A DNA stretch of 52,852 bases from Candidatus Nanoarchaeia archaeon (GTDB lineage Archaea; Nanobdellota; Nanobdellia; UBA10117): contig JAWCLD010000001.1 of the NCBI GenBank assembly GCA_038851215.1, positions 1-52,852 on the forward strand. The letters are read 5' to 3'. Below are positions 5,541 through 52,852 of the stretch, one piece after another. The position numbers were made by a program, and so were the translations under genes. Positions within the stretch are counted from its first letter, which is position 1. The number at the start of each line of letters is the position of its first letter. The notes under the pieces were generated by a model. It ran no database searches. It saw only the letters and a program-made list of their open reading frames with translations, and was not told the DNA's origin.

Positions 5541-7148
5541 TCAGCTCGCAGAAAAACTGATTTCCAATCCTTTTAATAAGGCGTCTTCAATTAAACTGCC
5601 AAGCTTCGACTTCTTATGAATTTTTATTTCCCCACTACGAGGCACTGATAATTTTGTAACAGATTGTCCCGCAATTTCAAGATTTACAAAGCGGACAGGT
5701 CTTGTTAAGTAAAAGCTAATATACTTTTTAGCCTCCTTTACTTTGTATGGGATTGTGCCAATTGCGAGAATTTCTTGTTTTCTTTTTGTTTTTATTGGCA
5801 CTATAACAGTCTGCTCACCGTAAGTATAGATCTCAAACTCAAGTTCTTTTGTCTCTAGATCTCGTACTTCTACTACTGGTCGGGCAAGATCCGCTTCTGT
5901 CATTCCTGTTGGTACTTTAACTTTCATTGTTAGCTCTAAAACTTTGGCAACTTTACCATCTTCAATAAATATTATTGTGTCGATAATAGATGGCATCATT
6001 CCGAGCTCAATGCGACCAACAAATCTCTGTATAGCATCGATTGGGTTTGTGCCGTGTACAACTCCAACAAGACCAATTCCGGCAAGACGTAGATCGGCAT
6101 AAAGCTTGAAATCCTCGGTTACACGCATTTCGTCAAAGAAAGTATAATCTGGTCTTGTCAACAACATTACATTGTGAATGTCATCTCTATTGCCAAGATT
6201 TTTTGAATACTGAACGACTTCATCAGGGACTTGCAAATCTCGCGGACTTTCGATTGTCTTTACAATTTTGCCAAGCTTCAGATAGAATTTCGCCAAGGCA
6301 GAGGCAAAAGTTGTCTTGCCTGAGCCTGGCGCACCTGAAATTAAGATTCCTGCAGTGTTTCTGCTAAGTCTCTCTCGTAGTGCTGTTGGCAACTTGTAAT
6401 CTTCTATTTCTAGAACTGCAATAGGTCGTACTGCAGTAAGCTCCCAGCCATCAGAGAAAGGCGGTTTAGTTATAACAATTCTGAAGTTTTTAAACTGTAT
6501 AATTGTCACAGCCGGAGTATTCAGTTCGATGAAGGCGTTCTCTGCCAACTTCGTTTTTTCAATTATATCTGAAGAAAGCAATCTTATATCATGGCCAGAT
6601 AACGCTTCTTTTTGTAAGTTAACGAAGGACCAAGCACCCGGTCTACCTTTCTTTGCAATCGGAATTGTATTTTCCTTTAAATGAATCGACATTGTTTCAG
6701 CATCAAAGAATTTTTCTATATCGAGTTTGCCAACTTCCCTTATTGGCAGGGGTGTAAGTAGCATTACAGAGATGCCAAGCGCTTCTGCAACTAGAGCTTG
6801 TACTCTGTCTGCTGTTATCAACGTACCTTCTCTTTGTACTGCTATATCCCTTATAATATCATCAATTGCGCCTGCTTTTGCACCTTTTATGTAAGCCTCA
6901 ACAGGTTTAGCGCCTGCGAATTGAATAGAAATTTTTTTTGTTTCTGCAGCAATTGCCCGTAGTTCTTTTATTTCTTCTAAGCCAAGAAAACCTTCAGTTT
7001 GGTTTGTGTTTGCTTGGTGTTCCAGCTCTGCAAGGACTGCGTTAGGTATGATTATCTCACCTGAAATTTTATCTTTCTTAACCAAGTCGGATACTTGCCG
7101 TTCAATAAGAACGGAAGTATCTACGACATATACTTTTTTGTCTTTCAT
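5541..7148 (-). CDS. PIN-domain / PilT-like ATPase / KH-domain protein (COG1855-type)
   Basis: 535 aa with an N-terminal PIN (VVDTSVLI..), Walker A GAPGSGKTT, and a C-terminal KH-like region. Confidence 0.7.
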   Translation of the reverse strand: MKDKKVYVVDTSVLIERQVSDLVKKDKISGEIIIPNAVLAELEHQANTNQTEGFLGLEEIKELRAIAAETKKISIQFAGAKPVEAYIKGAKAGAIDDIIRDIAVQREGTLITADRVQALVAEALGISVMLLTPLPIREVGKLDIEKFFDAETMSIHLKENTIPIAKKGRPGAWSFVNLQKEALSGHDIRLLSSDIIEKTKLAENAFIELNTPAVTIIQFKNFRIVITKPPFSDGWELTAVRPIAVLEIEDYKLPTALRERLSRNTAGILISGAPGSGKTTFASALAKFYLKLGKIVKTIESPRDLQVPDEVVQYSKNLGNRDDIHNVMLLTRPDYTFFDEMRVTEDFKLYADLRLAGIGLVGVVHGTNPIDAIQRFVGRIELGMMPSIIDTIIFIEDGKVAKVLELTMKVKVPTGMTEADLARPVVEVRDLETKELEFEIYTYGEQTVIVPIKTKRKQEILAIGTIPYKVKEAKKYISFYLTRPVRFVNLEIAGQSVTKLSVPRSGEIKIHKKSKLGSLIEDALLKGLEISFSAS

Positions 7149-10105: not shown

Positions 10106-10429
10106 ATGCAAAATAAGAATGAATGGCAAGCCATTGCAAAAGAAAGAATAGATATTTTGTTTAGGGAAGCAAATTTAGCAGCCAAAGAAGGGAACTTGCA
10201 AAGGGCTTCACGATATATTTTTTTAGCCAGGAAATTGGCAATGAAATATAATTTGCGATTATCAAGGGAACAAAGAAAGAAATTTTGCCACAAATGTTAC
10301 AAATACCTCATGCCTGGAAAAAACGTTTCCATTAAAATTAATCCTAAGTTACAATCGGTTGAATATCGGTGTAAGGAATGTGGGCATACTAATAGATACC
10401 CTTATATCAAGGAAAAGAAATTAAAGTAA
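10106..10429 (+). CDS. rnp4: RNase P protein component 4 (Rpp21/Rpr2)
   Basis: Has an N-terminal helical region (IAKERIDILFREANLAAKEG..ASRYIFLARKLAMKYNLRL) and a Zn ribbon (CHKC...CKEC). Confidence 0.8.
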   Translation: MQNKNEWQAIAKERIDILFREANLAAKEGNLQRASRYIFLARKLAMKYNLRLSREQRKKFCHKCYKYLMPGKNVSIKINPKLQSVEYRCKECGHTNRYPYIKEKKLK

Positions 10430-11261
10430 CCAAATCGCCATTTTCGTCAAACAAAAATGCTGTATCGCCGGCGTTGTTCCATATTGGTTCTTTAGAATTC
10501 CAATAAAGTTCCGTTTTGGTGTCTATCCCAGAGCCGGTATAAAGTATAATTTGCATATTCGGCTCTAAACTTATATTTTTGAAATAGTAGAAATGTGTTG
10601 CTTGGTCCTTAATACTCCACTTATCTATGTTAATTGTCCTAGCGTCTTCATTCTTAATTATGACAAACTCACCATTCAGATTTTCATTATCGTTGCCAGG
10701 AGCGTCATAACTAACTTCTAATTTAATGTTATAATTCGCAGTTGAGCTCCATAATCCTCTTTTGTTTTTCTTAGCCTCTTGTTCAAGGCAGCTAAACAAT
10801 GTGGAGTATTTTGTATTCGGCTCAACCGGATAAATTGTTGCAAGGCCCTGCCGCACAAGCTCCGCATTTATAAACTTGTCCTCTGTAAATGCGTATCTTA
10901 ACAATCTACCATATTGGTCTTTGTCTTCAACGTCCCTTGCCAGCATTATACCATTTTCAGACAGTTTTGTTGTTAGTTGAGCTGCTTCAGCAGACCATTT
11001 AAGCCCTTTTTCAGGCGTATTTATTCCAACAAAACGAACTTTGTCGCCATTTACTAGCTGAACTGTATCGCCATCTAAGATTTTCATTACGGTGAAAATT
11101 CTTCCCTGATTTTCTTCTATGATTTGAGGAAGCTTTGCAATCTCCTCTTCGCAATTTATTTGTGGTTGCAGAGGAATTAAGCCACCTATAATTGAGCATC
11201 CACTAACCAAAACCAGTGCAACAAACAACAATAGTAATAATGAAAATGGTCGGTTACACAT
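10407..11261 (-). CDS. Secreted lipoprotein-like thermonuclease (SNase) fused to a lamin-tail domain
   Basis: Signal/lipobox-like LLLLLFVALVLVSGC. SNase motifs DGDTVQL, RFVGINTPE, DQYGRLLRYAF and NAELVRQGLA. A C-terminal LTD-like segment GEFVIIKNEDARTINIDKWSIKD. Confidence 0.75.
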   Translation of the reverse strand: MCNRPFSLLLLLFVALVLVSGCSIIGGLIPLQPQINCEEEIAKLPQIIEENQGRIFTVMKILDGDTVQLVNGDKVRFVGINTPEKGLKWSAEAAQLTTKLSENGIMLARDVEDKDQYGRLLRYAFTEDKFINAELVRQGLATIYPVEPNTKYSTLFSCLEQEAKKNKRGLWSSTANYNIKLEVSYDAPGNDNENLNGEFVIIKNEDARTINIDKWSIKDQATHFYYFKNISLEPNMQIILYTGSGIDTKTELYWNSKEPIWNNAGDTAFLFDENGDLVTLISFP

Positions 11262-13942: not shown

Positions 13943-14590
13943 TTGGAAATGACTTACGCAGATGATATTATTGCTGGAAAGTACAAGATTCCAATAAGCT
14001 GGCTCCATACGCAAGCTTATTGCGAGTACCAAATTTTTCTAGAACATGTTAAAGGAATTTCTGTCGATAGAAGTATTGCGATGATTGTAGGTGCCGAAAG
14101 CCATGCAAAATTAGATGCAGAGCATGCGGCGAAGGTTGAAGAAATTATGAGCTTAGAAGAAGTTCTTGTCCAATCAACAGAACGAAAGGTTACTTTTGTA
14201 GCACGTGAAGTTGGTGTCGAAAACCTCTATTTGAAAGGTATCATAGATGAGATACGGATAAGTCCTGCAGAAATTATAATTATAGACGACAAGCCAACAA
14301 AAGGAAAAGCTTGGCCTGCCGATATAAGACAAGTCTGGGGTTATTGCTGGGCTTATTCAGATCAATATAAGCCCGATAGAACTCTTTATGGTGCTGTAAG
14401 GGACAGAGAAACGCAAGAATTTGTGTGGCAGGAACCTTTTACAGAAAATGCAAAAAAAGATGTAAAAGAAGCAACATTTAGAATTATAGATATTCTTAAA
14501 GGAGTTAGAGCTGCAGTTCCTACAAGAAAACCGCAAAAGTGTAAGCCATGTAGGTTTAGAAAAGTTTGCGATAAATGTTTAAGTACTTAA
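13943..14590 (+). CDS. Cas4/RecB-like PD-(D/E)xK exonuclease with 4-Cys cluster (no CRISPR context)
   Basis: N-terminal Cys (QAYCEYQ), nuclease motifs GIIDEI and IIIDDKPTK, QxxxY (QVWGYCWAY), and C-terminal CKPCRFRKVC. Confidence 0.7.
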   Translation: MEMTYADDIIAGKYKIPISWLHTQAYCEYQIFLEHVKGISVDRSIAMIVGAESHAKLDAEHAAKVEEIMSLEEVLVQSTERKVTFVAREVGVENLYLKGIIDEIRISPAEIIIIDDKPTKGKAWPADIRQVWGYCWAYSDQYKPDRTLYGAVRDRETQEFVWQEPFTENAKKDVKEATFRIIDILKGVRAAVPTRKPQKCKPCRFRKVCDKCLST

Positions 14591-25552: not shown

Positions 25553-26155
25553 CTACGCTCTTCCTCTACTTTCTCCAAGTGCAATTCCTTGCCCAATGAT
25601 GTGTGCAACGCGCACAGGCTCGGGCACCGCTCCATGTCTGATTGTAAGTTTTAAAAGTTGTCTTACTTCTCTTGCGGATAGACCTGCGAACTGAAAATAT
25701 ATTTTTGCAGTTTTGGCTAATTCTTTATGTTTTACTTTGTGAACTTGAGGTTTGCCTGCCCGTTCTATAACTTTCCATCTTTTGTCGCCATCTTTGAAGT
25801 GTCTCAGTGCTTTTTTAATTGACCTGAAATTAGGCATATTTCTTGTCACAACAATTACTGGTAGTTTTGTTTTCCTGCTAAGCTCTTGGATATCGATGAC
25901 ATTGAAGCCTGCCAGAGCAATGCCATCAAGCATTATTACGCGCAAGGAGCTTCTAACTCTCGAATTGTTAATCATTTCTACAAGCTTGGCTGTTGCGTCC
26001 GTTCCATCAACTTTTACAAAAGTGCTGAGCAAATTATCAAGGTACTCCGCGCCACGAAAAATCGCGCCAATAACTAACACATCCTGCTTTTGGCCTTTAA
26101 TGTGTGCCGTATCGTCAATTCCAATAATTCTTAACTGCTTTTTTAGGTGTACCAT
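25553..26155 (-). CDS. DUF99/UPF0215 (endonuclease V-like fold) protein
   Basis: IIGIDD...VIGAIFRG...VDGTDAT...IMLDGIALAGFNVID pattern. Confidence 0.65.
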   Translation of the reverse strand: MVHLKKQLRIIGIDDTAHIKGQKQDVLVIGAIFRGAEYLDNLLSTFVKVDGTDATAKLVEMINNSRVRSSLRVIMLDGIALAGFNVIDIQELSRKTKLPVIVVTRNMPNFRSIKKALRHFKDGDKRWKVIERAGKPQVHKVKHKELAKTAKIYFQFAGLSAREVRQLLKLTIRHGAVPEPVRVAHIIGQGIALGESRGRA

Positions 26156-27228: not shown

Positions 27229-30200
27229 TTACGGCAAAATATCCTTAAGTTTGTTTGGGTCCCAGCCAGCTTCTAGTAATGAGAGCTTAATTTGCTGCGG
27301 AGTGTGGCCTTCATCAAGCTCCTCTTTGATATAATCTTTTAGCTTGTCAATGTCATCTGTAGGTTTAAGGACGCCAGCTTTTCTTGCATGGCTTTTTACA
27401 TGCTTTTCTGTCAATTTGCCTAGAATATCGTCAATGATATTTGAAGGCCAATTTGCACTCAACAATGCGGTTCGCACTTGCGCCGCAGTGAAGCCCATTT
27501 CAAGACATTTTCTAGCATATCTTTCAGCCTGTTCGATTTCTTCTGTTGGGACACTAACTTTGTACTGCTCTGCAAGTGCATCTAATTTTACTTGTGTAGC
27601 ATGCGCTGCACTGAGTGCGTTGTTTATATCAGCCGCAGACCAACCTCCTGCAGCTAATTGCTGGGAAATTTCTGAAGGCGAATATCCTTGACTAAGCATT
27701 GTGTCAACTGCAGGTCCAAGCTCACCTTCTCCAGGTGTTTCGACGCCATGTGCTACTGTCAAAGCAGCCAGACCGTGTCTGCGTTTATACATATAATACA
27801 ATCCACCTGCTATAATAGCAAGTATCACTGCTACCACAGTTAGCCACACATTTGTGCCTATCTTTTTCTTACAATCGTATGGACTTATTGCAGGTGTCTC
27901 GCCAGCAGCACTGTCGCAAACGCCATCACCGATAAGATATGGGCACTTGCAGTTGGGTGTACAAAGACCTGGACAAGCTACATCTTTAGAGCCGTCGCAA
28001 TCCTCGCCAGCTTCAACAACATTGTTGCCGCAAACTCCCTCTTGAGAATCTGGCTTGCAATCCACTGGAGAATTGGCGTAATTTTCGCCGTACTTTACAT
28101 CGCAAATGCCATCCCCTACTTTATATTTAGGTAATATGTCTTGATAGAGCGTCTTGTTGCAGCCTTCTGTTATATCATCAATCTTACCGTTGCAGTTGTT
28201 ATCAACATAGTCACCACAAATCTCCGTGGCACCAGGATTGATATCCTTATCCAAATCGTCACAATCCTTTGCGCCGCAGTCTCCACCTTCTACAGCATAG
28301 CCGTCAGCATCGATATCTGTGCATTCTATTACCTTATAAACTAAACTGAGCTTTTCGCTTTTAGTCGGGTCTTTTATATTTGTGGCTGTAAAATTGATAG
28401 TATAATTGCCAATCTCTACATCCTTCGCCGATATTACTTCGAGCAAAATCTTATCTTTGTCGCCAACAGCTATTGTGCTATTTTTTGGCGAAATTTCGCA
28501 CTCCCAGTCGCTTGGGCATTTTACAGAATAATCGAACCTACCAACACAATCATCTTGATTTTCAACTGTAATGTTATAAGAAACTTCTGTGCCAGCAGTT
28601 GCGCTGATATGTTTTGTTTTTGTACTAAGGCTTGGTGCTTCTCTGCTGCAAATCTTTATAGTATAATTGAACGTCGTGCTTGCGTTATATTCTGGATTTT
28701 CAAAATCGTAAGCTAAGGCGCTGAAACTATAGTCGTTAAGGCTTGCAGTAGTTGGTGAAGTTATTGCAAAAGGTACTGAGGAAGTTTTGCCATTTTTTAT
28801 ATCAAGAGTCGTACTGTTTGGCTGACATTTCCAGCCACTCTTACAACTTATATTCAAGCCAAACGTCTTGTCAGCGCCTCTGTAATTAGTAATTTTTGCG
28901 GTATAAGTTAAAGTATCGCCTTTGTCGCCACTTTGGCTTAACGGCTCTATGGCAAGGACAACAGGAAATACTTCTGCCTCGAAACTTATATTAGAGCTTT
29001 CGCTACACTCTGGCCAGCCATTTTCACAAAGCTTAGTGAGATCAAATACGCCTTCACAAACAGCAGTGTGCTGTCCTTCCGAAACGGCTGGGCATTTAAA
29101 TTTCGCACCATTATTCGTCCACTCCACCAAAGAGCAGCGCGTTGTATTAGTATCAATGTATGCACTCAAAGCCTCGCACTTTAACGCGTTATTACAGGCC
29201 TGTGCAAGACATGTTAAATTAAATTCAGTATTTGGGCGTACTAAAGATGGTTCTAAGATAGGTGTGCTTAACCTACATTCATGACATGATAAAATTACAA
29301 ATACGGTAGAGTTACCTTCAACATAATTTGATGCGCTTGCCGTTATTTCAGCTTCTCCTACTTGAGTGGGGGAGCTGAAGGTCACAGAGCATCCACCATT
29401 TGAAGTAACACATTTATTTGGACTTACAGAACCAAAGCTTGGCGAAAAGCTAATTATAATACCGTTGGCCCTATCCAATGTATTGGCAGTGATTGTTGAG
29501 GTCTCTTTTATAGTTATAATTTTGGGATTTGCGGAGACATAAAGTATCTTTTGCTGCGAGGAAACCGTTATGATTGTTTCTTGTCCTATCCCTTCATTAT
29601 TAGCTGCATCGTAACATTTGAACTGGGCTTTATGAGTACCTACACTTTGTGGCGTAAATTCAGTTTGCCAGGTATTTGTATTGCCTATTTGTTTAGCGGA
29701 TGCTTGCAAGACGGAATCGTAATAAAAGTCGCACTTGATTACTTTGACATTATCTATTGCGTTAGCGGAGAAAGTAGTAAGTTGGCCTACAAATGCTGTT
29801 GTAGGACTTACTGCAGATACTTTCGGCTTTTCCGTATCCGTGATTGAGTTAAATGTTGCGGTTACAGCTTTAGTTGCATCCATAATTATATTGCAAGTTC
29901 CAGTACCACTGCAGCCTGCGCCAGACCAGCCTGCAAATACGCTTCCAGAAGCAGCACTTGCTGTCAAAGTAACTGATGTTCCGCTAGCATAAGTTTCAGA
30001 ACAATCTGCGCCGCAATTTATACCTGCGCCCGTAACTGTTCCAGAGCCGGTTCCAGCTTTTGATACTGTCAGAGTATATTGTGTTGGTAAACTCCAGGTA
30101 CAGCCATCTCCTGCTGATTGATGTTGCTTGCATTCAGCTTCACCAAGAGTAGGACAAGCGTGTGGCGTTCCGGTGCAAATGTAATCGTTTATGAATTTGT

Positions 30201-30627
30201 CATAGATCCACCGGCAATTGTGAGAAATACAATTTGATTGTGTGAAATATTGGTTGCAGGGTTTGTGATTGCCTATACATTCTCCACTTTCTCCCATAGG
30301 TTGTGCGGGCGCGGCGAATTTGGCTAGCTGTGTGCCTGCAAAAAGCATAAGCCCCCCAAGTATTAAAATAAAGACTACGAAGAAAAGCGTCAAATTTTTG
30401 CGGAATTCTTTTGGTGTTTTGGCTGAAAACTTGTTTTTGAAGAACAAGTAAAGAAACACGCTTGCTACAATTATAACAAAGGCAGTAAATGATATTAAAA
30501 CTAGATTTGGGTTACTTTCTGGCGAGACTGCTGCTCCTGTTATTTGGTTAAAGCTATGCCAGCCTAGTATTACTATACCTACAAGCATTAATAATATTAT
30601 TATGACGGCAGTGGCCGAGCCTCGCAT
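27229..30627 (-). CDS. 1132-aa multi-domain membrane-spanning surface protein
   Basis: Three N-terminal TM segments and a Cys-rich module. InlB-B-repeat-like domain (YTLTVSKAGTGSGTVTG..INCG.DCSETY..GTSVTLTA..GWSG..C, aa 183-260). Ig-like domains and two paralogous CARDB-like domains with C.SGW.C / CPSDWEC. MopE-like metal-binding motif (DADGY..DCDD.D..INPGATEICGD.VDNNCNGKIDD). Myxococcus-type Cys-rich repeat (CGNNVVEAGEDCDG). TM at aa 927-946, then a cytoplasmic tail with three copies of a ~35-aa repeat. Confidence 0.8.
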   Translation of the reverse strand: MRGSATAVIIILLMLVGIVILGWHSFNQITGAAVSPESNPNLVLISFTAFVIIVASVFLYLFFKNKFSAKTPKEFRKNLTLFFVVFILILGGLMLFAGTQLAKFAAPAQPMGESGECIGNHKPCNQYFTQSNCISHNCRWIYDKFINDYICTGTPHACPTLGEAECKQHQSAGDGCTWSLPTQYTLTVSKAGTGSGTVTGAGINCGADCSETYASGTSVTLTASAASGSVFAGWSGAGCSGTGTCNIIMDATKAVTATFNSITDTEKPKVSAVSPTTAFVGQLTTFSANAIDNVKVIKCDFYYDSVLQASAKQIGNTNTWQTEFTPQSVGTHKAQFKCYDAANNEGIGQETIITVSSQQKILYVSANPKIITIKETSTITANTLDRANGIIISFSPSFGSVSPNKCVTSNGGCSVTFSSPTQVGEAEITASASNYVEGNSTVFVILSCHECRLSTPILEPSLVRPNTEFNLTCLAQACNNALKCEALSAYIDTNTTRCSLVEWTNNGAKFKCPAVSEGQHTAVCEGVFDLTKLCENGWPECSESSNISFEAEVFPVVLAIEPLSQSGDKGDTLTYTAKITNYRGADKTFGLNISCKSGWKCQPNSTTLDIKNGKTSSVPFAITSPTTASLNDYSFSALAYDFENPEYNASTTFNYTIKICSREAPSLSTKTKHISATAGTEVSYNITVENQDDCVGRFDYSVKCPSDWECEISPKNSTIAVGDKDKILLEVISAKDVEIGNYTINFTATNIKDPTKSEKLSLVYKVIECTDIDADGYAVEGGDCGAKDCDDLDKDINPGATEICGDYVDNNCNGKIDDITEGCNKTLYQDILPKYKVGDGICDVKYGENYANSPVDCKPDSQEGVCGNNVVEAGEDCDGSKDVACPGLCTPNCKCPYLIGDGVCDSAAGETPAISPYDCKKKIGTNVWLTVVAVILAIIAGGLYYMYKRRHGLAALTVAHGVETPGEGELGPAVDTMLSQGYSPSEISQQLAAGGWSAADINNALSAAHATQVKLDALAEQYKVSVPTEEIEQAERYARKCLEMGFTAAQVRTALLSANWPSNIIDDILGKLTEKHVKSHARKAGVLKPTDDIDKLKDYIKEELDEGHTPQQIKLSLLEAGWDPNKLKDILP

Positions 30628-48823: not shown

Positions 48824-49330
48824 CTACTTTAATTCTGCTTTTAGTTCATTCAGAACGCGCTCCCAATTTACTCTGGACAAATAATAGATTTTAACATCCT
48901 TTCTTTCTTTAATTTTTTCTATGAAAAGATATTTTGACTTGAAGGAAATAGTTGCCAGTACCTTTTTTGCATCAAGAGCTTGTTCTACTAACTGTTTGAA
49001 TTTTTCCGAATGGATTTCCATAGTTCCAATTTCATCAATTACAACAAGATTAGCGTTTTCTATTGCCCATTGCATTGCAGGAATTGCAATTTTTTCGAAA
49101 GCTTCTACATCTAAGCCATATCTAGAAACAATAGCTGGCTTTATCTCTATAGAAGCGAAAACTGCCTCTCTGTTTGTTTTGACATCAACAACTTTAAAGC
49201 CCCATCTTTCGCCATCTTTCCTTATTTCAGGCGTGATTATGCCGCCAACATTCTTATCTTTAATTAACTCTTGCAACAATGTCGATTTACCTGATGCAGG
49301 CGGACCGCTGATTAAGATATTATATCTCAT
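48824..49330 (-). CDS. Nucleoside-triphosphatase THEP1-like (P-loop NTPase)
   Basis: ILISGPPASGKSTL, ..GFKVVD.., and VVIDEIGTMEIHS. Confidence 0.7.
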   Translation of the reverse strand: MRYNILISGPPASGKSTLLQELIKDKNVGGIITPEIRKDGERWGFKVVDVKTNREAVFASIEIKPAIVSRYGLDVEAFEKIAIPAMQWAIENANLVVIDEIGTMEIHSEKFKQLVEQALDAKKVLATISFKSKYLFIEKIKERKDVKIYYLSRVNWERVLNELKAELK

Positions 49331-49381: not shown

Positions 49382-49525
49382 CTAAGGAATTAGGTTTCTA
49401 ACCCTGCTCACTGCGCCACTGACCAGGTCTTTTGTAAGATGTGGATAGTACCATAGTCCAACCACAAGTAAAATCAAAATCACAACTGCAATTATTAGCA
49501 GCGCATTGCCTTTTTTATTGTCCAT
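49382..49525 (-). CDS. 47-aa single-TM mini-protein (tentative)
   Basis: Hand translation gives MDNKKGNALLIIAVVILILLVVGLWYYPHLTKDLVSGAVSRVRNLIP*. No other support. Confidence 0.25.
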   Translation of the reverse strand: MDNKKGNALLIIAVVILILLVVGLWYYPHLTKDLVSGAVSRVRNLIP

Positions 49526-49550: not shown

Positions 49551-50519
49551 TTAAAGCTTTTCTATGATGCAAGCTTTTATTGGCTTATCAAATCTTAACC
49601 TTTTGAAACTTGGCGCTCTGAGGTGTAAGCGATTTGTATAATTGAGGAATTGCACTTCAGCAACGTATTTGGGCCTTACCCAAATCACTTCTTTAGTCAG
49701 CTTTGGCACTTCTGAAAAAGGGGGGTGAGATGTTTTGATTTTCTTAAGTGCTTTTCCAAGTTCTTCTACTTGCTTCGAATCAAAACCTGTTCCGACTTGT
49801 CCAACATGAAGCAATTTGCCTCGGTAATATTGCCCAAGTACAAGCGAGGCAAAAGGCGAGCGTATGCCAACTGTATAGCCGCAAATTATACAGTCTGCAA
49901 CTTTTATGTTCTTTATCTTTAGCCAATGTCTGCTACGAATGCCAACGAGATATATCGAATTTCGATCTTTAGCCATTACACCTTCCATATTAAATTTTTT
50001 AACATCGCGCCAAAGTCTAAGTCCTTGGCCTTCTAGATAGAAAACTTTCCTGATGTGTATAAGATTATCTGGTATGACTTTTTCTAACACATGCTTCCTA
50101 TCAATTAATTTTTGTTTGGTAAGGTTATTATTATCATGAGCTAAAATATCAAAAACGTAAAGGGTTGCGGGCCATCGTGTTGAAAGCAACTTAATTTTGA
50201 ATGCATTTTCGGTTTGGTCTCTACTCTGCAACAAGCTAAAATTAGGCAAACCATTTTTATCTAACACTATTACTTCACCATCGAGAATTACATCGCCAAA
50301 AAGTTTTTTGGCTTCTTCAACAATTTCAGGAAATCGATGCTGAAACCAATTACCTCTGCGATTTAACATTCTGATGTTATTATTGCTTTTGTACAAAATA
50401 CAACGCGTACCATCGAGCTTAGGCTCGTAAATAAAGTTTTTTAGTTTCAAGTCAGTTTTGCGTCCTATTACGGCAAGCATTGGAAAAATCTTTTTCTTGT
50501 ATAACTCCAAATCACTCAT
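49551..50519 (-). CDS. Short ATP-dependent DNA ligase (LigD ligase-domain-like: adenylation + OB only)
   Basis: Motif I EPKLDGTR, ..LDGEVIV.., ..FDIL.., ..EGVMAK.., ..WLKIK. About 322 aa, with no N-terminal DNA-binding domain. The preferred start MSDLELYKK overlaps the Ku stop by 8 nt. Confidence 0.8.
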   Translation of the reverse strand: MSDLELYKKKIFPMLAVIGRKTDLKLKNFIYEPKLDGTRCILYKSNNNIRMLNRRGNWFQHRFPEIVEEAKKLFGDVILDGEVIVLDKNGLPNFSLLQSRDQTENAFKIKLLSTRWPATLYVFDILAHDNNNLTKQKLIDRKHVLEKVIPDNLIHIRKVFYLEGQGLRLWRDVKKFNMEGVMAKDRNSIYLVGIRSRHWLKIKNIKVADCIICGYTVGIRSPFASLVLGQYYRGKLLHVGQVGTGFDSKQVEELGKALKKIKTSHPPFSEVPKLTKEVIWVRPKYVAEVQFLNYTNRLHLRAPSFKRLRFDKPIKACIIEKL

Positions 50520-51297
50520 TTTTCGTTTTTGCTTTGGCTTTCGCCATCTTGAGGCTTGCCTCAAGCGCCACCATCAAGTCTTTAGTTGGTTTTGCAGTCG
50601 GAATTTCAACTTTTTTACCTTCAAGTTTAGCTTCTATAAATGACCGTAGAATTTCTTTGTACTTGTTCTTAAACTCGGAAAGATTAAAATGTTTTGTTAA
50701 CTTTGCAATAAGTTCTGCTGCAAGCTTTAACTCTTGTTTACTTGCTTTTGGTAAGGCGGTAAGCTCTGCAAAGAATTCTGGTTTTCTTATCTCGTCTGAA
50801 TAAAACAAAGTTGTAAGGAGCAGAGTATTTTTGTAGCCTCGCAGCACAACAAGATAATCTCTATCACGCATTACGACTTTACCAACTGCAACAATATTAG
50901 CTAATTGTAGCGCTTCCTTCAACAAGGAAAAAGCTTTTTCTGCGCCCTTTTCAGGAACTATAAAGTAATTCTTATCGTAAAATAATGGGTCTATTTCGGC
51001 CGAATCGACAAACTCTATAATTTCAATATTTTTAGATTGTGGTATTGGCAGCCGATGTAATTCTTCTCTATTAAATGTTACATATTTGCCTTTGACATAT
51101 TCAAAACCATGAAGCACCGAATCCCAAGATACTTCTGCTTTGCATTTTGCGCACCATCGCTTATATTGCAATCTCGATTTGCACTTTGGGCATAAAAGGT
51201 GGAAAGAGACTAGTTTTGGTTCTGTTGCGCTATAGAGTTTTATAGGTAGTACAATTAGACCAAATGCTATATTTCCACGCCAAATTGCTTTTGGCAT
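50512..51297 (-). CDS. ku: Ku-family DNA end-binding protein (prokaryotic type)
   Basis: MPKAIWRGNIAFGLIVLPIKLYSATEPK.VSFHLLC..C..RLQYKRWC.KC..EV......GFEY.KGKYV.F..EEL. Confidence 0.85.
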   Translation of the reverse strand: MPKAIWRGNIAFGLIVLPIKLYSATEPKLVSFHLLCPKCKSRLQYKRWCAKCKAEVSWDSVLHGFEYVKGKYVTFNREELHRLPIPQSKNIEIIEFVDSAEIDPLFYDKNYFIVPEKGAEKAFSLLKEALQLANIVAVGKVVMRDRDYLVVLRGYKNTLLLTTLFYSDEIRKPEFFAELTALPKASKQELKLAAELIAKLTKHFNLSEFKNKYKEILRSFIEAKLEGKKVEIPTAKPTKDLMVALEASLKMAKAKAKTKNE

Positions 51298-52577
51298 TAT
51301 TTCCTCTTGATTAGCTTAGGCCTTATTACTTTTCCTCTCTTTTCAATACATTCTTTTTCTATTTTTCCCAATTCTTGGCGCTTGCCATGCCGACCCGTTA
51401 CAGTCCACCATTTCTTGCCTTCTTCCTTGAATTTAAGTAAATCTAAATCCATAGCCTTAAGGGCCCAACTTATTGCTGTGTTGAGGTCGAAGTGTGCTTG
51501 TTCAACGGTAAAAATTTTAGCGGGTGTTGCAAGCCTTAGATGCACAGAATACTTTTTCTTTTTATGTTCCTTTTTTTCATACTCTTTAATGTGAACTAGG
51601 AAATATATAACATTACGAAAATAAGCTCTTCTTACTTTTTCATAAAACTCCGCAACTTGTTGCCTTACTGAATCGTAAAGCTGGCCAGGTAGCTGCTCAC
51701 AACCTACAAATTGTATACTCCAATATTCTGGTGCCTTAAGTTTGAAGAAGGCTCGGAGCACATCTCTTGTTGTAAGTATACCAATAGGCTTTCTATCCTG
51801 CGCAATTATTATGTCAGAAACTTTATGTTCAAACATTTCTGCAACAGCTGTGCCTAAAGTTGCTGTAGGAGGAACTGTAAAGACTGTAACTGAGGCCGCG
51901 TCGCCGATTGGTTGGTCAAGCATAAATTCTTTATCAGCTTCGAATGACTTTGACCCTGTAAAGGTTTTTCTTTCTTTTATTCTAGCTTTTGGCATTCCTT
52001 GTCTCTTTTCCTCTGGCGATAGAAAATGTTTTTTTAACAAATCAGTGATTGAAAAGATAGAGATTATTCTTCCCATTTTATCAACAATTGGCGCATGACT
52101 AAAATGTCGCTCTTTCATTATATTAACCGCGTCGCCTAATCTTGTCTCGTATTTAAAAATTAGTGGAGCAGTTGTTGCGACTTCTGTAACTTTGAGTTTT
52201 GCTAAGGCAGGAAATTTTGGTAAAGTTGACAGTATATCGCGAGACCTCACAACGCCTATAATTTTATTCCCCTTTTTAACTGGTAATAAGCAAGGGTAGT
52301 TATGGTACATCAGCTCTGCGGCTCTAAAAATGTCTGTATCTGGCGTGACAAGTGGCGGGTGAACTAAAAATGCGCTAATTTGTGTTTTAGGTTCTATTTT
52401 TGACTTTATTAGAAGTATTCTATCAAGTACTCCACGATAAGAAGGCTTGAAGCGCTTGTCGAAAACTAGTGCGTATCTTTCGTCGCTTTGTTGTAATTTA
52501 CCAATAGTTTTTGTTATAGTAACGGAAGAATCGAGCTTGAGAAAATTCCGCTGCATAATCTCACTAACTGTGACCAT
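51297..52577 (-). CDS. Multi-CBS-domain protein with a C-terminal HPF/RaiA (S30AE)-like domain
   Basis: Four CBS-like units (aa ~5-280). The region aa ~286-386, WSIQFVGCEQLPGQLYDSVRQQVAEFYEKVRR...YSVHLRLATPAKIFTVEQAHFDLNTAISWALKAMDLDLLKFKE, parallels E. coli HPF (LNITGNNVEITEALREFVTAKFAKLEQYF...[38 protein letters not shown]). Its stop overlaps the Ku ATG (TAATG). Confidence 0.65.
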   Translation of the reverse strand: MVTVSEIMQRNFLKLDSSVTITKTIGKLQQSDERYALVFDKRFKPSYRGVLDRILLIKSKIEPKTQISAFLVHPPLVTPDTDIFRAAELMYHNYPCLLPVKKGNKIIGVVRSRDILSTLPKFPALAKLKVTEVATTAPLIFKYETRLGDAVNIMKERHFSHAPIVDKMGRIISIFSITDLLKKHFLSPEEKRQGMPKARIKERKTFTGSKSFEADKEFMLDQPIGDAASVTVFTVPPTATLGTAVAEMFEHKVSDIIIAQDRKPIGILTTRDVLRAFFKLKAPEYWSIQFVGCEQLPGQLYDSVRQQVAEFYEKVRRAYFRNVIYFLVHIKEYEKKEHKKKKYSVHLRLATPAKIFTVEQAHFDLNTAISWALKAMDLDLLKFKEEGKKWWTVTGRHGKRQELGKIEKECIEKRGKVIRPKLIKRK

Positions 52578-52688
52578 ATAAACACTTTTAGAGTTGAATA
52601 TTTATACTTTTACTTATGCTCACGTATAAGCAGAAGCCTTTAAAAATCATCTATTCGAAGCAAAGATACCGCTTAGGCGGGAGCTGAA

Positions 52689-52852
52689 ATGGCGATAACA
52701 AAAGAAGCTATTCTGGAAGCTCTAAAGAAAATTCGTGAAGGGAAAAAGAGAAGATTTACTCAATCAATAGAGCTTATTATTAGCTTGAAAGAGCTTGATA
52801 CCAAAAAAGATGAAGGGAAGATTGATGAGTTTATCGTATTGCCAGCTGGGCG
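52689..52852 (+). CDS. rpl1: 50S ribosomal protein uL1, N-terminal part (runs off the window)
   Basis: MAITKEAILEALKKIREGKKRRFTQSIELIISLKELDTKKDEGKIDEFIVLPAG matches the uL1 N-terminus. Confidence 0.8.
   Translation, partial: MAITKEAILEALKKIREGKKRRFTQSIELIISLKELDTKKDEGKIDEFIVLPAG

What the first reader, a model, noticed from the sequence alone, without database searches (positions are those of the whole stretch)
49551..52577. Translationally coupled CBS/HPF-like - Ku - minimal DNA ligase operon in an archaeon
Three minus-strand genes are chained by overlaps: TAATG at 51295..51299 and an 8-nt overlap at 50512..50519.

Ku is clearly prokaryotic-type, with an internal CxxC...CxxC ribbon. The ligase is a ~322-aa adenylation+OB enzyme like the LigD ligase domain.

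Ku-dependent end joining is patchy in archaea. Complete systems are known in Methanocella and Ku is reported in a few others, and such systems normally come with a primase-polymerase and a phosphoesterase. Neither is in this window.

Instead, the first gene of the operon is a CBS-domain (adenosyl-ligand sensing) protein with a ribosome-hibernation-like domain. This hints that end joining is co-expressed with a dormancy or energy-state response, as NHEJ is in stationary-phase or sporulating bacteria.
Basis: partly seen in the sequence, partly recalled or inferred. Interest (0 to 1): 0.65.

Follow-up and report, generated by a model that had tools for sequence, protein, structure and literature searches.

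The report
Hibernation factor gene followed by Ku-ligase pair
In this tiny uncultivated (DPANN/Woesearchaeota) archaeon, a two-gene DNA end-joining kit (Ku plus a small ligase) sits directly behind the gene for the recently described ribosome hibernation factor HibA and is probably transcribed with it. Relatives show the pairing is a local arrangement of known parts, not a conserved new system.

Summary
Three minus-strand genes are chained by a TAATG overlap and an 8-nt overlap.

- **Gene 1** is a full-length member of the HibA/AHA archaeal ribosome hibernation factor family (4xCBS + HPF/RaiA; described 2025-26).
- **Gene 2** is a prokaryotic Ku that passes the NCBIfam Ku equivalog cut-off.
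- **Gene 3** is a LIG-only "NHEJ ligase". It passes TIGR02779, fails the Lig1-type dnl1 cut-off, and its best solved-structure match is the M. tuberculosis LigD ligase domain.

No polymerase or phosphoesterase domain is in the window.

A promoter-like TATA box lies 29 nt upstream of hibA. None lies upstream of ku or lig, so co-transcription is likely in this genome.

Relatives weaken the functional reading:
- hibA plus a 47-aa membrane peptide is a fixed backbone gene next to the L1-L10-L12 operon.
- Ku-Lig occupies a variable slot. Ku follows hibA directly or after the peptide gene in 6 lineages. It lies behind an opposite-strand ABC transporter in one, and Ku and Lig are both absent in 5.
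- Ku-Lig pairs sit in other contexts in at least four other, more distant archaeal lineages.
- Ku has its own TATA box in three relatives.
- None of 80 more distant Ku loci has HibA nearby.
- Gene overlaps are routine in this genome.

Verdict: known parts in a lineage-specific juxtaposition. Interest is moderate.

The parts
52689..52852 (+). 5' part of ribosomal protein L1 gene, divergent from hibA (runs off the window end)
   Evidence: The translation MAITKEAILEALKKIREGKKRRF... matches the L1 genes upstream of hibA in relatives at 52-76% identity. These are called PF00687 Ribosomal_L1 in L001, L002, L004, L013, L017 and L018.
52599..52606 (-). TATA-box-like promoter element (TATAAATA) preceded by AAAAG, 29 nt upstream of the hibA ATG. 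This predicts a leaderless or near-leaderless mRNA.
   Evidence: The same motif class (TTTAAA/TATAAA/TTTATA at -40..-18) is found at 14 of 32 unit-heading genes. It occurs at 6% of random positions and at 0 of 17 tightly following genes. A TATA-like hexamer lies between -27 and -33 of hibA in 10 of 12 relatives.
51297..52577 (-). hibA/AHA-type ribosome hibernation factor gene, 426 aa. Four-CBS module at about residues 1-281 (51735..52577). HPF/RaiA-like domain at about residues 287-387 (51417..51719). Lys/Arg-rich tail at residues 388-426.
   Evidence: Pfam CBS E 4e-32; PF02482 21.8 bits, below its cut-off. phmmer gives full-length matches to P. abyssi HibA (9sr9_H, E 6.9e-21) and to 9l96_a (E 8.5e-28). 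The 9SR9-9SRF entries are HibA entries. [quoted passage not shown] Foldseek top hits are CBS tetrads: SriA and AMPK gamma.
51303..51306 (-). GAGG Shine-Dalgarno-like element 6-9 nt upstream of the ku ATG, inside the hibA 3' end
   Evidence: Read directly from the sequence. Its function is inferred.
51295..51299 (-). TAATG stop/start overlap between hibA and ku
50512..51297 (-). Ku gene (261 aa), prokaryotic single-domain type, with a C36-x2-C39...C49-x2-C52 motif (51142..51192)
   Evidence: PF02735 E 4e-43. NCBIfam TIGR02772 Ku_bact scores 261 bits against a cut-off of 150. Best PDB matches are chains deposited as 'Non-homologous end joining protein Ku' (9vnq, 8v53, 9i91), E 1e-42 to 4e-44. 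The four-Cys form occurs in 7 of 120 homologues and a His + 3 Cys form in 36 of 120.
50512..50519 (-). 8-nt overlap (ATGAGTGA) between the ku stop and the ligase start
49551..50519 (-). LIG-only ATP-dependent DNA ligase (322 aa; adenylation + OB domains; KxDG lysine K34 at 50418..50420)
   Evidence: PF01068 + PF04679. TIGR02779 NHEJ_ligase_lig scores 258 bits against a cut-off of 227.75, while dnl1 scores 124 against 217.8. Best PDB matches are 6nhx_A (ATP-dependent DNA ligase, 307 aa), E 5.5e-33, and the M. tuberculosis LigD ligase domain 1vs0, E 7.6e-33. Close homologues are named 'non-homologous end-joining DNA ligase [Candidatus Nanoarchaeia archaeon]' by NCBI.
49382..49525 (-). 47-aa single-pass membrane peptide gene, a conserved partner of hibA in relatives
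   Evidence: tblastn/blastp matches lie directly downstream of hibA in L001, L002, L005, L007, L008 and L010. A 45-54-aa ORF is called at the same position in L012, L017 and L018. It is fused in frame to the HibA C-terminus in P0011, P0012 and L013.
48824..49330 (-). NTPase_1 (THEP1-like) gene, last gene of the same-strand string. It is a backbone gene present with or without Ku-Lig.
   Evidence: PF03266 E 5e-43. NF010248 scores 156.5 bits against a cut-off of 156. Present in L002, L004, L005, L007, L008, L010, L012, L013, L017 and L018.

Best explanation
The region is a same-strand gene string in a Woesearchaeota (DPANN) genome: hibA - ku - lig - membrane peptide - NTPase.

**What each part does**
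- hibA encodes a HibA/AHA-type ribosome hibernation factor. By homology, its four-CBS module binds adenine nucleotides. Its HPF/RaiA domain plugs the small-subunit decoding and mRNA channel. This is inferred from the characterised homologues.
- ku and lig form a minimal two-protein end-joining module. A Ku homodimer would thread onto double-strand break ends. It would present them to a stand-alone LigD-type ligase (adenylation + OB domains only), which seals them. No dedicated polymerase or phosphoesterase is present, so any end processing must come from other cell enzymes (inferred).

**How it is expressed**
- ku and lig have no promoter-like element of their own.
- ku has a GAGG ribosome-binding site, and both genes overlap the preceding gene.
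- They are therefore most likely transcribed from the hibA promoter and co-expressed with the hibernation factor in this genome.

**Why the pairing exists**
- The juxtaposition is best explained by local history, not by an obligatory functional unit.
- hibA with its membrane peptide is a fixed gene beside the L1-L10-L12 operon.
- Ku-Lig is an accessory pair inherited within this clade. It sits in a variable slot between hibA and the NTPase gene.
- It has been shuffled, lost several times (always both genes together), and in some relatives carries its own promoter.
For: **Gene identities**
- Ku and ligase: curated NCBIfam cut-offs passed; PDB matches.
- No PE or PolDom.

**Operon structure**
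- Overlaps.
- TATA motif at -29 of hibA, conserved in relatives.
- The motif is absent before ku and lig. Overall it is present at 14 of 32 unit heads, 0 of 17 internal genes and 6% of random sites.

**Evolution**
- Ku follows hibA directly or after the peptide gene in the window, L001, L004/L009, L010, L013/L014 and L018.
- Ku lies behind a reverse-strand ABC transporter in L012.
- Ku and Lig are both absent in L002/L006, L005, L007, L008 and L017.
- HibA, Ku, Lig, NTPase and Kae1 NJ trees resolve the same three subclades, as expected for vertical descent with losses.
- Ku-Lig pairs occur without HibA in L015 (Micrarchaeota), L019, L020 and L029.
Against: - No transcript data exist. Co-transcription rests on a promoter motif derived from this window alone.
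- Chance TATA-like hexamers exist inside the coding sequence and could serve as internal promoters. One lies at 50640, 121 nt upstream of the ligase ATG.
- The hibA-Ku adjacency has persisted in three subclades that are only about 45-50% identical in HibA. That could reflect selection rather than inertia.
- The trees are simple NJ trees on 8-13 sequences.
- I could not inspect the rest of the genome for a Lig1-type ligase, PolDom or PE.
Confidence: 0.55

Rival explanations
1. Adaptive dormancy operon. Placing ku-lig behind hibA is selected because non-growing cells have no sister copy for recombination. Such cells need template-independent break repair at the time ribosomes hibernate. The energy-sensing hibernation programme and NHEJ would then form one regulon.
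For: - Same-strand, promoter-less ku and lig behind hibA in the window and in clade B (L004, L013, L010).
- Ku follows hibA directly or after the peptide gene in 6 lineages across three subclades.
- Loss of Ku and ligase makes B. subtilis and M. smegmatis more radiation-sensitive in stationary phase and as spores (PMC11936186).
- HibA/AHA deletion mutants recover poorly from stationary phase (PMC13324472, PMC12934967).
Against: - hibA is kept without Ku-Lig in at least 5 lineages, including the window's closest relatives by Kae1 (L002 83%, L005 82%).
- Ku has its own TATA box at -29 or -33 in L001, L012 and L018.
- In L012 an opposite-strand ABC transporter separates hibA from Ku.
- Ku-Lig pairs lie elsewhere in L015, L019, L020 and L029.
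- None of 80 more distant Ku loci has HibA or HPF within 6 kb.
- The whole neighbourhood is syntenic, so adjacency is not independent evidence.
Confidence: 0.25
2. No co-expression at all. The overlaps only reflect genome compaction, and ku and lig are transcribed from cryptic promoters inside the upstream coding sequences.
For: - 13 of 47 same-strand neighbour pairs overlap and 20 of 47 are 10 nt or less apart, including unrelated genes such as S27ae-Kae1-DUF192 and VIT1-MFS.
- TATA-like hexamers occur inside hibA (52157) and inside ku (51244, 50964, 50640).
- Relatives L001, L012 and L018 do give Ku its own promoter.
Against: - No motif lies in the -40..-18 window of ku or lig.
- The motif sits in that window at 14 of 32 unit heads and 0 of 17 internal genes.
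- ku has a GAGG ribosome-binding site, which I regard (my own knowledge, not tested here) as typical of internal cistrons in archaea with leaderless first genes.
Confidence: 0.12
3. The ligase is the genome's general or replicative ligase, and its position next to Ku is incidental.
For: - No Lig1-type ligase is in the 52.8-kb window.
- DPANN genomes are reduced.
- The rest of the genome could not be searched.
Against: - It passes the NHEJ-ligase equivalog-domain cut-off and fails the dnl1 cut-off.
- At 322 aa it has no N-terminal DNA-binding domain. It aligns only to the catalytic core (from about residue 245) of the 550-570-aa archaeal ligases.
- It is absent together with Ku in L002, L005, L007, L008 and L017.
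- It is paired with Ku in every lineage where both could be seen.
Confidence: 0.04
4. Ku-Lig is cargo of a mobile or defence-related element that repeatedly lands in a hot spot next to hibA.
For: - The slot between hibA and the NTPase gene is variable: Ku-Lig, an ABC transporter, both, or neither.
- The order of Ku, Lig, the peptide gene and NTPase differs between lineages.
- L019 has a nucleotidyltransferase plus a small ORF between Ku and Lig.
- NHEJ has been linked to antiphage defence in mycobacteria (PMC12848934, seen).
Against: - No integrase, transposase or tRNA lies at the slot.
- GC content is unremarkable: 0.357-0.367 in the 48-52 kb windows against 0.346-0.41 across the window.
- Ku and Lig trees mirror the HibA, Kae1 and NTPase trees, as for vertical inheritance.
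Confidence: 0.04

Closest known systems
HibA (Pyrococcus abyssi / Thermococcus barophilus), also called AHA (Haloferax volcanii HVO_2384): archaeal ribosome hibernation factor, 4xCBS + HPF/RaiA (PMC13324472; PMC12934967)
   Same: Same two-module architecture and order. Full-length sequence alignment to the solved HibA chain (9SR9_H, E 6.9e-21) and to 9L96_a (E 8.5e-28). [quoted passage not shown]
   Different: - About 35 extra Lys/Arg-rich C-terminal residues.
- A conserved 47-aa membrane peptide partner, fused to HibA in some relatives.
- In this genome it is followed directly by ku-lig.
- Neither paper's text mentions operons, neighbourhoods or DNA repair.
- Ribosome and nucleotide binding are untested.
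Archaeal NHEJ of Methanocella paludicola (separate Ku, Lig, Pol, PE proteins; as described in 10.1101/2023.09.30.560322, and PMC4797286, abstract seen)
   Same: Stand-alone Ku and stand-alone LIG-only ligase of the LigD family encoded as separate genes in an archaeon.
   Different: No Pol or PE gene is in the window or in the fetched flanks (up to 8-10 kb where the contig allows) of the related Woesearchaeal loci. The host is a DPANN archaeon.
Bacterial 'nonconventional' NHEJ: Ku with a LIG-only ligase such as LigC (PMC7719229)
   Same: Ku plus a ligase made only of adenylation and OB domains. The best solved-structure match is 6nhx_A (E 5.5e-33), closely followed by the M. tuberculosis LigD ligase domain 1vs0 (E 7.6e-33). 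Both the Ku and NHEJ-ligase NCBIfam models are passed.
   Different: - Archaeal host.
- Ku carries a four-cysteine motif found in only 7 of 120 homologues.
- The pair lies behind a hibernation factor gene.
Bacterial stationary-phase / spore NHEJ (B. subtilis and M. smegmatis Ku and ligase; stationary-phase and spore radiation sensitivity as stated in PMC11936186)
   Same: Conceptual parallel: template-independent repair deployed in non-growing cells.
   Different: Here the link to dormancy is only positional (a shared promoter with hibA is inferred). No regulator, sigma factor or expression data are available.

Membership tests
HibA/AHA archaeal ribosome hibernation factors | N-terminal module of four tandem CBS domains (CBS tetrad) | tested here: met
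   Pfam CBS E 4e-32 in three stretches. The AF2 model shows four CBS-like units at residues 1-281. Foldseek top hits are CBS tetrads: SriA 9znf_4 (E 4.7e-20), SSO3205 and AMPK gamma.
HibA/AHA archaeal ribosome hibernation factors | [quoted passage not shown] | tested here: met
   AF2 secondary structure: E289-291, H298-318, E325-332, E343-350, E355-362, H365-387. The alignment to HibA 9sr9_H runs through this domain, to residue 384. The Pfam PF02482 hit alone is below its cut-off (21.8 against 23.7 bits).
HibA/AHA archaeal ribosome hibernation factors | Full-length sequence homology to an experimentally characterised member | tested here: met
   phmmer: 9sr9_H (P. abyssi HibA, 392 aa) E 6.9e-21, residues 3-384 against 5-372. 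9l96_a E 8.5e-28, residues 4-387 against 3-384. PDB codes confirmed in PMC13324472.
HibA/AHA archaeal ribosome hibernation factors | Binds the ribosome (30S decoding/mRNA channel) and adenine nucleotides; protects ribosomes in stationary phase | not testable with these tools
   Needs biochemistry or cryo-EM. Inferred by homology only.
Prokaryotic Ku (TIGR02772 / PF02735) | Single Ku core (beta-barrel + bridge) domain scoring above the curated cut-off, with the conserved C-terminal motif | tested here: met
   TIGR02772 scores 261 bits against a cut-off of 150 over model positions 1-259 of 259. PF02735 E 4e-43. PDB chains deposited as 'Non-homologous end joining protein Ku' match at E about 1e-42 to 4e-44. 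A C-terminal KDLMVALEASL stretch is conserved in the clade alignment.
LigD-type NHEJ ligase (LIG-only; TIGR02779) | Adenylation + OB domains only, KxDG active-site lysine, score above the NHEJ-ligase cut-off | tested here: met
   TIGR02779 scores 258 bits against 227.75. PF01068 + PF04679. K34-L-D-G37 read from the translation. 1vs0 (Mtb LigD LigDom) E 7.6e-33.
Replicative Lig1-type archaeal ligase (TIGR00574 dnl1) | N-terminal DNA-binding domain plus catalytic core; score above the dnl1 cut-off | tested here: not met
   dnl1 scores 124.2 bits against a cut-off of 217.8. At 322 aa the protein aligns only to the C-terminal part (from about residue 245) of the 550-570-aa archaeal ligases.
Complete archaeo-prokaryotic NHEJ (Ku + Lig + Pol + PE) | Primase-polymerase (PolDom) and 3'-phosphoesterase (PE) encoded with or near Ku and Lig | tested here: not met
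   tblastn with nine multi-domain LigD proteins hit only the ligase domain in the window and in L001-L012. Pfam scans of 36 window ORFs were negative. The rest of the genome could not be searched.
Operon (single transcription unit hibA-ku-lig) | Same strand, no intergenic space, promoter only upstream of the first gene | tested here: met
   Overlaps of 1 and 8 nt. TATA motif at -29 of hibA and none in the -40..-18 windows of ku or lig. The motif is present at 14 of 32 unit heads, 0 of 17 internal genes and 6% of random sites.
Operon (single transcription unit hibA-ku-lig) | One transcript covering all three genes | not testable with these tools
   Needs RNA-seq, RT-PCR or TSS mapping.
Conserved functional gene cluster HibA + NHEJ | Adjacency recurs in independent lineages and contexts | tested here: not met
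   Adjacency is seen only inside one syntenic Woesearchaeal clade. None of 80 more distant Ku loci has HibA or HPF within 6 kb. Ku-Lig lies elsewhere in L015, L019, L020 and L029. hibA lacks Ku-Lig in 5 lineages.

The most novel reading that the evidence does not exclude
In this Woesearchaeal clade the hibA promoter may drive a small 'dormancy survival' operon. An AMP/ATP-sensing hibernation factor would shut down and protect ribosomes. The co-transcribed Ku + LIG-only ligase would repair double-strand breaks in the single, non-replicating chromosome. This would be the first positional link between ribosome hibernation and end joining. Relatives in which HibA is fused to a membrane peptide add a further possibility: hibernating ribosomes may be tethered to the membrane.
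Probability: 0.2. Interest if true: 0.6.

Novelty: new member of a known kind. Interest (0 to 1): 0.4.

Why it matters
- **Annotation.** The first gene should be named HibA/AHA rather than "CBS domain protein". NCBIfam release 20 has no model for the family.
- **Distribution of NHEJ.** Minimal Ku + LIG-only pairs are present in several uncultivated archaeal lineages: Woesearchaeota/Nanoarchaeia, Micrarchaeota and others. Published archaeal Ku surveys used 10-19 cultured species and do not mention DPANN.
- **A testable idea.** In some of these genomes ku-lig has lost its own promoter and rides on the hibA promoter. If transcript data confirmed this, it would give a simple natural case for asking whether end joining is deployed with ribosome hibernation.
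- **Limits.** As it stands this is a lineage-specific arrangement of known parts, not a new system.

Tried and rejected
- **Genome-collection scan with the 20-sequence HibA alignment.** It failed because no stretch was conserved enough. It was repeated with 15 sequences.
- **Foldseek of the HibA model against PDB.** The hits were dominated by CBS tetrads. The HibA entries themselves did not appear, so fold search added nothing for the HPF domain. Sequence search did that job.
- **Ku horizontal transfer within the clade.** I considered it because L012 has HibA 40% but Ku 68% identical to the window. I rejected it as the main story. The Ku, Lig, HibA, NTPase and Kae1 trees resolve the same three subclades, and Ku simply evolves more slowly in one of them.
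- **Bacterial contamination.** Rejected on the archaeal housekeeping genes across the window.
- **Bacterial versus archaeal origin of Ku and Lig.** This could not be resolved.
- **Literature.** Searches for NHEJ with DPANN or Woesearchaeota, and for hibernation with NHEJ, found nothing describing this arrangement.
- **Sigma-70 promoter scanner.** Not used, because it does not apply to archaea. A window-derived TATA motif was used instead.
- **Rfam and tRNA scans.** They found only one tRNA-Thr far from the region.

Full report
**1. Observation**

The three minus-strand ORFs are present as described:
- Gene 1 at 51297..52577, 426 aa.
- Ku at 50512..51297, 261 aa.
- A ligase at 49551..50519, 322 aa from the ATG. 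A longer TTG-started ORF exists, but homologues are 316-323 aa.

The TAATG junction (51295..51299) and the 8-nt overlap (50512..50519) are real.

Such overlaps are the rule in this genome. 13 of 47 same-strand neighbour pairs overlap and 20 of 47 are 10 nt or less apart, including unrelated genes. The overlap alone therefore says little.

The same-strand string continues with a 47-aa membrane peptide gene (49382..49525) and an NTPase_1 gene (48824..49330). Upstream, the L1 ribosomal protein gene starts divergently at 52689.

**2. Organism**

The window carries archaeal housekeeping genes: PCNA, eIF6, SRP54, L10e, Kae1, S24e and S27ae. The closest loci in species-representative genomes are all labelled Candidatus Woesearchaeota or Nanoarchaeia. 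It is a DPANN archaeon, not a bacterial contaminant.

**3. Gene 1 is a HibA/AHA hibernation factor**

- Pfam finds CBS domains (E 4e-32) and a sub-threshold S30AE/HPF hit.
- The protein aligns over its full length to two solved chains. One is 9sr9_H (392 aa, E 6.9e-21) and the other is 9l96_a (406 aa, E 8.5e-28).
- Entries 9SR9-9SRF and 9T7H are the Pyrococcus abyssi HibA-ribosome structures.
- HibA is defined as four CBS domains (residues 1-269) plus a C-terminal HPF/RaiA domain (270-392). It occurs in 47% of archaeal genomes (PMC13324472).
- The same family was described independently as AHA, with AMP bound in the CBS tetrad (PMC12934967).
- Foldseek hits are CBS tetrads of other hibernation factors and AMPK gamma.

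NCBIfam has no model for the family yet.

**4. Ku and ligase**

- Ku passes the curated Ku equivalog model (261 bits against a cut-off of 150).
- The ligase passes the NHEJ-ligase model (258 against 227.75) and fails the Lig1-type dnl1 model (124 against 217.8).
- The best solved relatives of the ligase are 6nhx_A (E 5.5e-33) and the M. tuberculosis LigD ligase domain 1vs0 (E 7.6e-33). Those of Ku are chains deposited as 'Non-homologous end joining protein Ku'.
- The ligase has the KxDG motif (K34).
- Ku has C36, C39, C49 and C52. Only 7 of 120 homologues have all four cysteines, and 36 have three cysteines with a histidine in the first position.
- NCBI already names close homologues "Ku protein" and "non-homologous end-joining DNA ligase" in Nanoarchaeia, Micrarchaeota and Aenigmarchaeota genome bins.
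- No PolDom or PE is in the window or in the related Woesearchaeal loci.

**5. Neighbourhood in relatives**

The backbone is: L1 (divergent) | hibA - membrane peptide - [variable slot] - NTPase_1, then convergent DUF192-Kae1-S27ae-S24e-Spt4-Rpb7.

| Locus | Gene order after hibA |
|---|---|
| Window | Ku - Lig - peptide - NTPase |
| L001 | peptide - Ku - Lig |
| L004/L009, L013/L014 | peptide fused to HibA - Ku - NTPase - Lig |
| L018 | peptide - Ku - NTPase - Lig |
| L010 | peptide - Ku - NTPase - Lig (Lig on the opposite strand) |
| L012 | peptide - reverse-strand ABC transporter - Ku; no ligase in the 8-kb contig |
| L002/L006, L005, L008, L017 | ABC transporter; no Ku or Lig |
| L007 | neither Ku-Lig nor the transporter |

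- The window's closest relatives by Kae1 identity (L002 83%, L005 82%) lack Ku and Lig.
- NJ trees of HibA, Ku, Lig, NTPase and Kae1 resolve the same three subclades. This fits an ancestral Ku-Lig pair at this slot followed by rearrangements and several joint losses.
- Joint loss argues that the ligase works with Ku and is not the cell's only ligase.

**6. Beyond the clade**

- Ku-Lig pairs lie in unrelated contexts in a Micrarchaeota bin (L015), in L019 and in the archaeal contigs L020 and L029.
- I fetched 80 more distant Ku loci (35-52% identity) from metagenomes. None has a HibA or HPF-domain gene within 6 kb. 51 have a ligase, 38 a PolDom and 9 a PE.
- 23 of the 51 ligase-bearing loci show no PolDom or PE in the flank.
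- Ku + LIG-only is thus a common layout. It is a recognised "nonconventional" class (PMC7719229).

**7. Transcription signals**

- Upstream regions of unit-heading genes in the window share an A-rich stretch plus TTTAAA/TATAAA/TTTATA about 22-30 nt before the ATG. This implies leaderless mRNAs.
- The motif starts between -40 and -18 at 14 of 32 unit heads, 0 of 17 tightly following genes and 6% of random positions.
- hibA has TATAAATA at -29 (52599..52606), and a TATA-like hexamer lies between -27 and -33 in 10 of 12 relatives.
- ku and lig have none. ku has a GAGG 6-9 nt upstream.
- Co-transcription from the hibA promoter is therefore the most likely state here and in L004, L013 and L010.
- In L001, L012 and L018, Ku has its own TTTATA at -29 or -33 in the gap after the peptide gene. 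Co-transcription with hibA is thus not a conserved property.
- Stray hexamers inside the coding regions, such as the one at 50640, leave room for internal promoters.

**8. Mechanism**

- *Shown:* family memberships, gene order, the promoter-motif pattern, and presence or absence across relatives.
- *Inferred by homology:*
  - HibA senses adenine nucleotides and blocks the 30S decoding and mRNA channel.
  - Ku rings bind break ends and recruit the ligase, which seals them.
  - End processing, if needed, must use other enzymes.
- *Inferred from position:* ku and lig are co-expressed with hibA in this genome.
- Co-expression would make biological sense. Loss of Ku and ligase sensitises B. subtilis and M. 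smegmatis in stationary phase and as spores (PMC11936186). HibA/AHA mutants recover poorly from stationary phase.
- The comparative data nevertheless favour a local, historical arrangement over a selected functional unit.

**9. Novelty**

- Each part belongs to a known family.
- I found no paper that describes NHEJ genes in DPANN archaea or a HibA-Ku linkage. The juxtaposition appears unreported.
- It is confined to one syntenic clade and is not obligatory there.
- I rate it a new member of known kinds, of moderate interest.
- The hibA-driven expression of ku-lig and the HibA-membrane peptide fusion are the points most worth following up.

Noticed in passing
window 49382..49525 (-); L004 9288..9425; L013 about 6590..6729; proteins P0011, P0012: A 47-aa single-pass membrane peptide gene follows hibA in most relatives. 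It is fused in frame to the HibA C-terminus in three distinct sequences (474, 455 and 455 aa). This hints that the hibernation factor may be membrane-tethered in this clade. In the window, Ku-Lig has been placed between hibA and this peptide gene.
   Followed up: partly
window, upstream of about 14 unit-heading genes (e.g. 52599..52606, upstream of 49330, 37120, 15084, 42343): A shared promoter-like motif (A-rich stretch + TTTAAA/TATAAA/TTTATA) lies 22-30 nt before start codons. It is seen at 14 of 32 unit heads against 6% of random positions, implying mostly leaderless transcripts in this organism.
   Followed up: partly
L002 9580..12141, L005 2280..4842, L008 11437..13986, L017 9433..11980, L012 1735..4276: The slot between hibA/peptide and NTPase_1 holds an opposite-strand ABC-2 type transporter (two permeases + ATPase) in relatives that lack Ku-Lig. 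L012 has both, and L007 has neither.
   Followed up: partly
window 51142..51192 (-), Ku residues 36-52: Possible zinc site C-x2-C...C-x2-C in Ku. Only 7 of 120 homologues have four Cys, 36 of 120 have three Cys with a histidine in the first position (H-x2-C...C-x2-C), and the close relatives P0037 and P0038 have lost it.
   Followed up: partly
L019 7649..8577: In one relative, a nucleotidyltransferase (NTP_transf_2) gene and a 137-aa ORF sit between Ku and the ligase. This looks like a toxin-antitoxin-like pair inserted into the Ku-Lig module.
   Followed up: no
L001 11678..12712: A 344-aa ORF with a faint LAGLIDADG hit lies between DUF192 and Kae1 in the 692-kb relative contig. It is absent from the window.
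   Followed up: no
window 10407..11261 (-), 13943..14590 (+), 25553..26155 (-): Other nucleic-acid enzymes are in the window: a staphylococcal-nuclease + lamin-tail-domain protein, a PD-(D/E)XK/Cas4-like nuclease, and an Endonuclease dU family protein. None is adjacent to the Ku-Lig genes.
   Followed up: no
window 27229..30627 (-): A 1132-aa ORF with only weak repeat or metal-binding-motif hits (MopE, InlB B-repeat, NEW3). It is probably a large surface protein.
   Followed up: no
window 5541..7148 (-): A 535-aa protein combines an N-terminal PIN domain with a T2SSE-type ATPase region.
   Followed up: no
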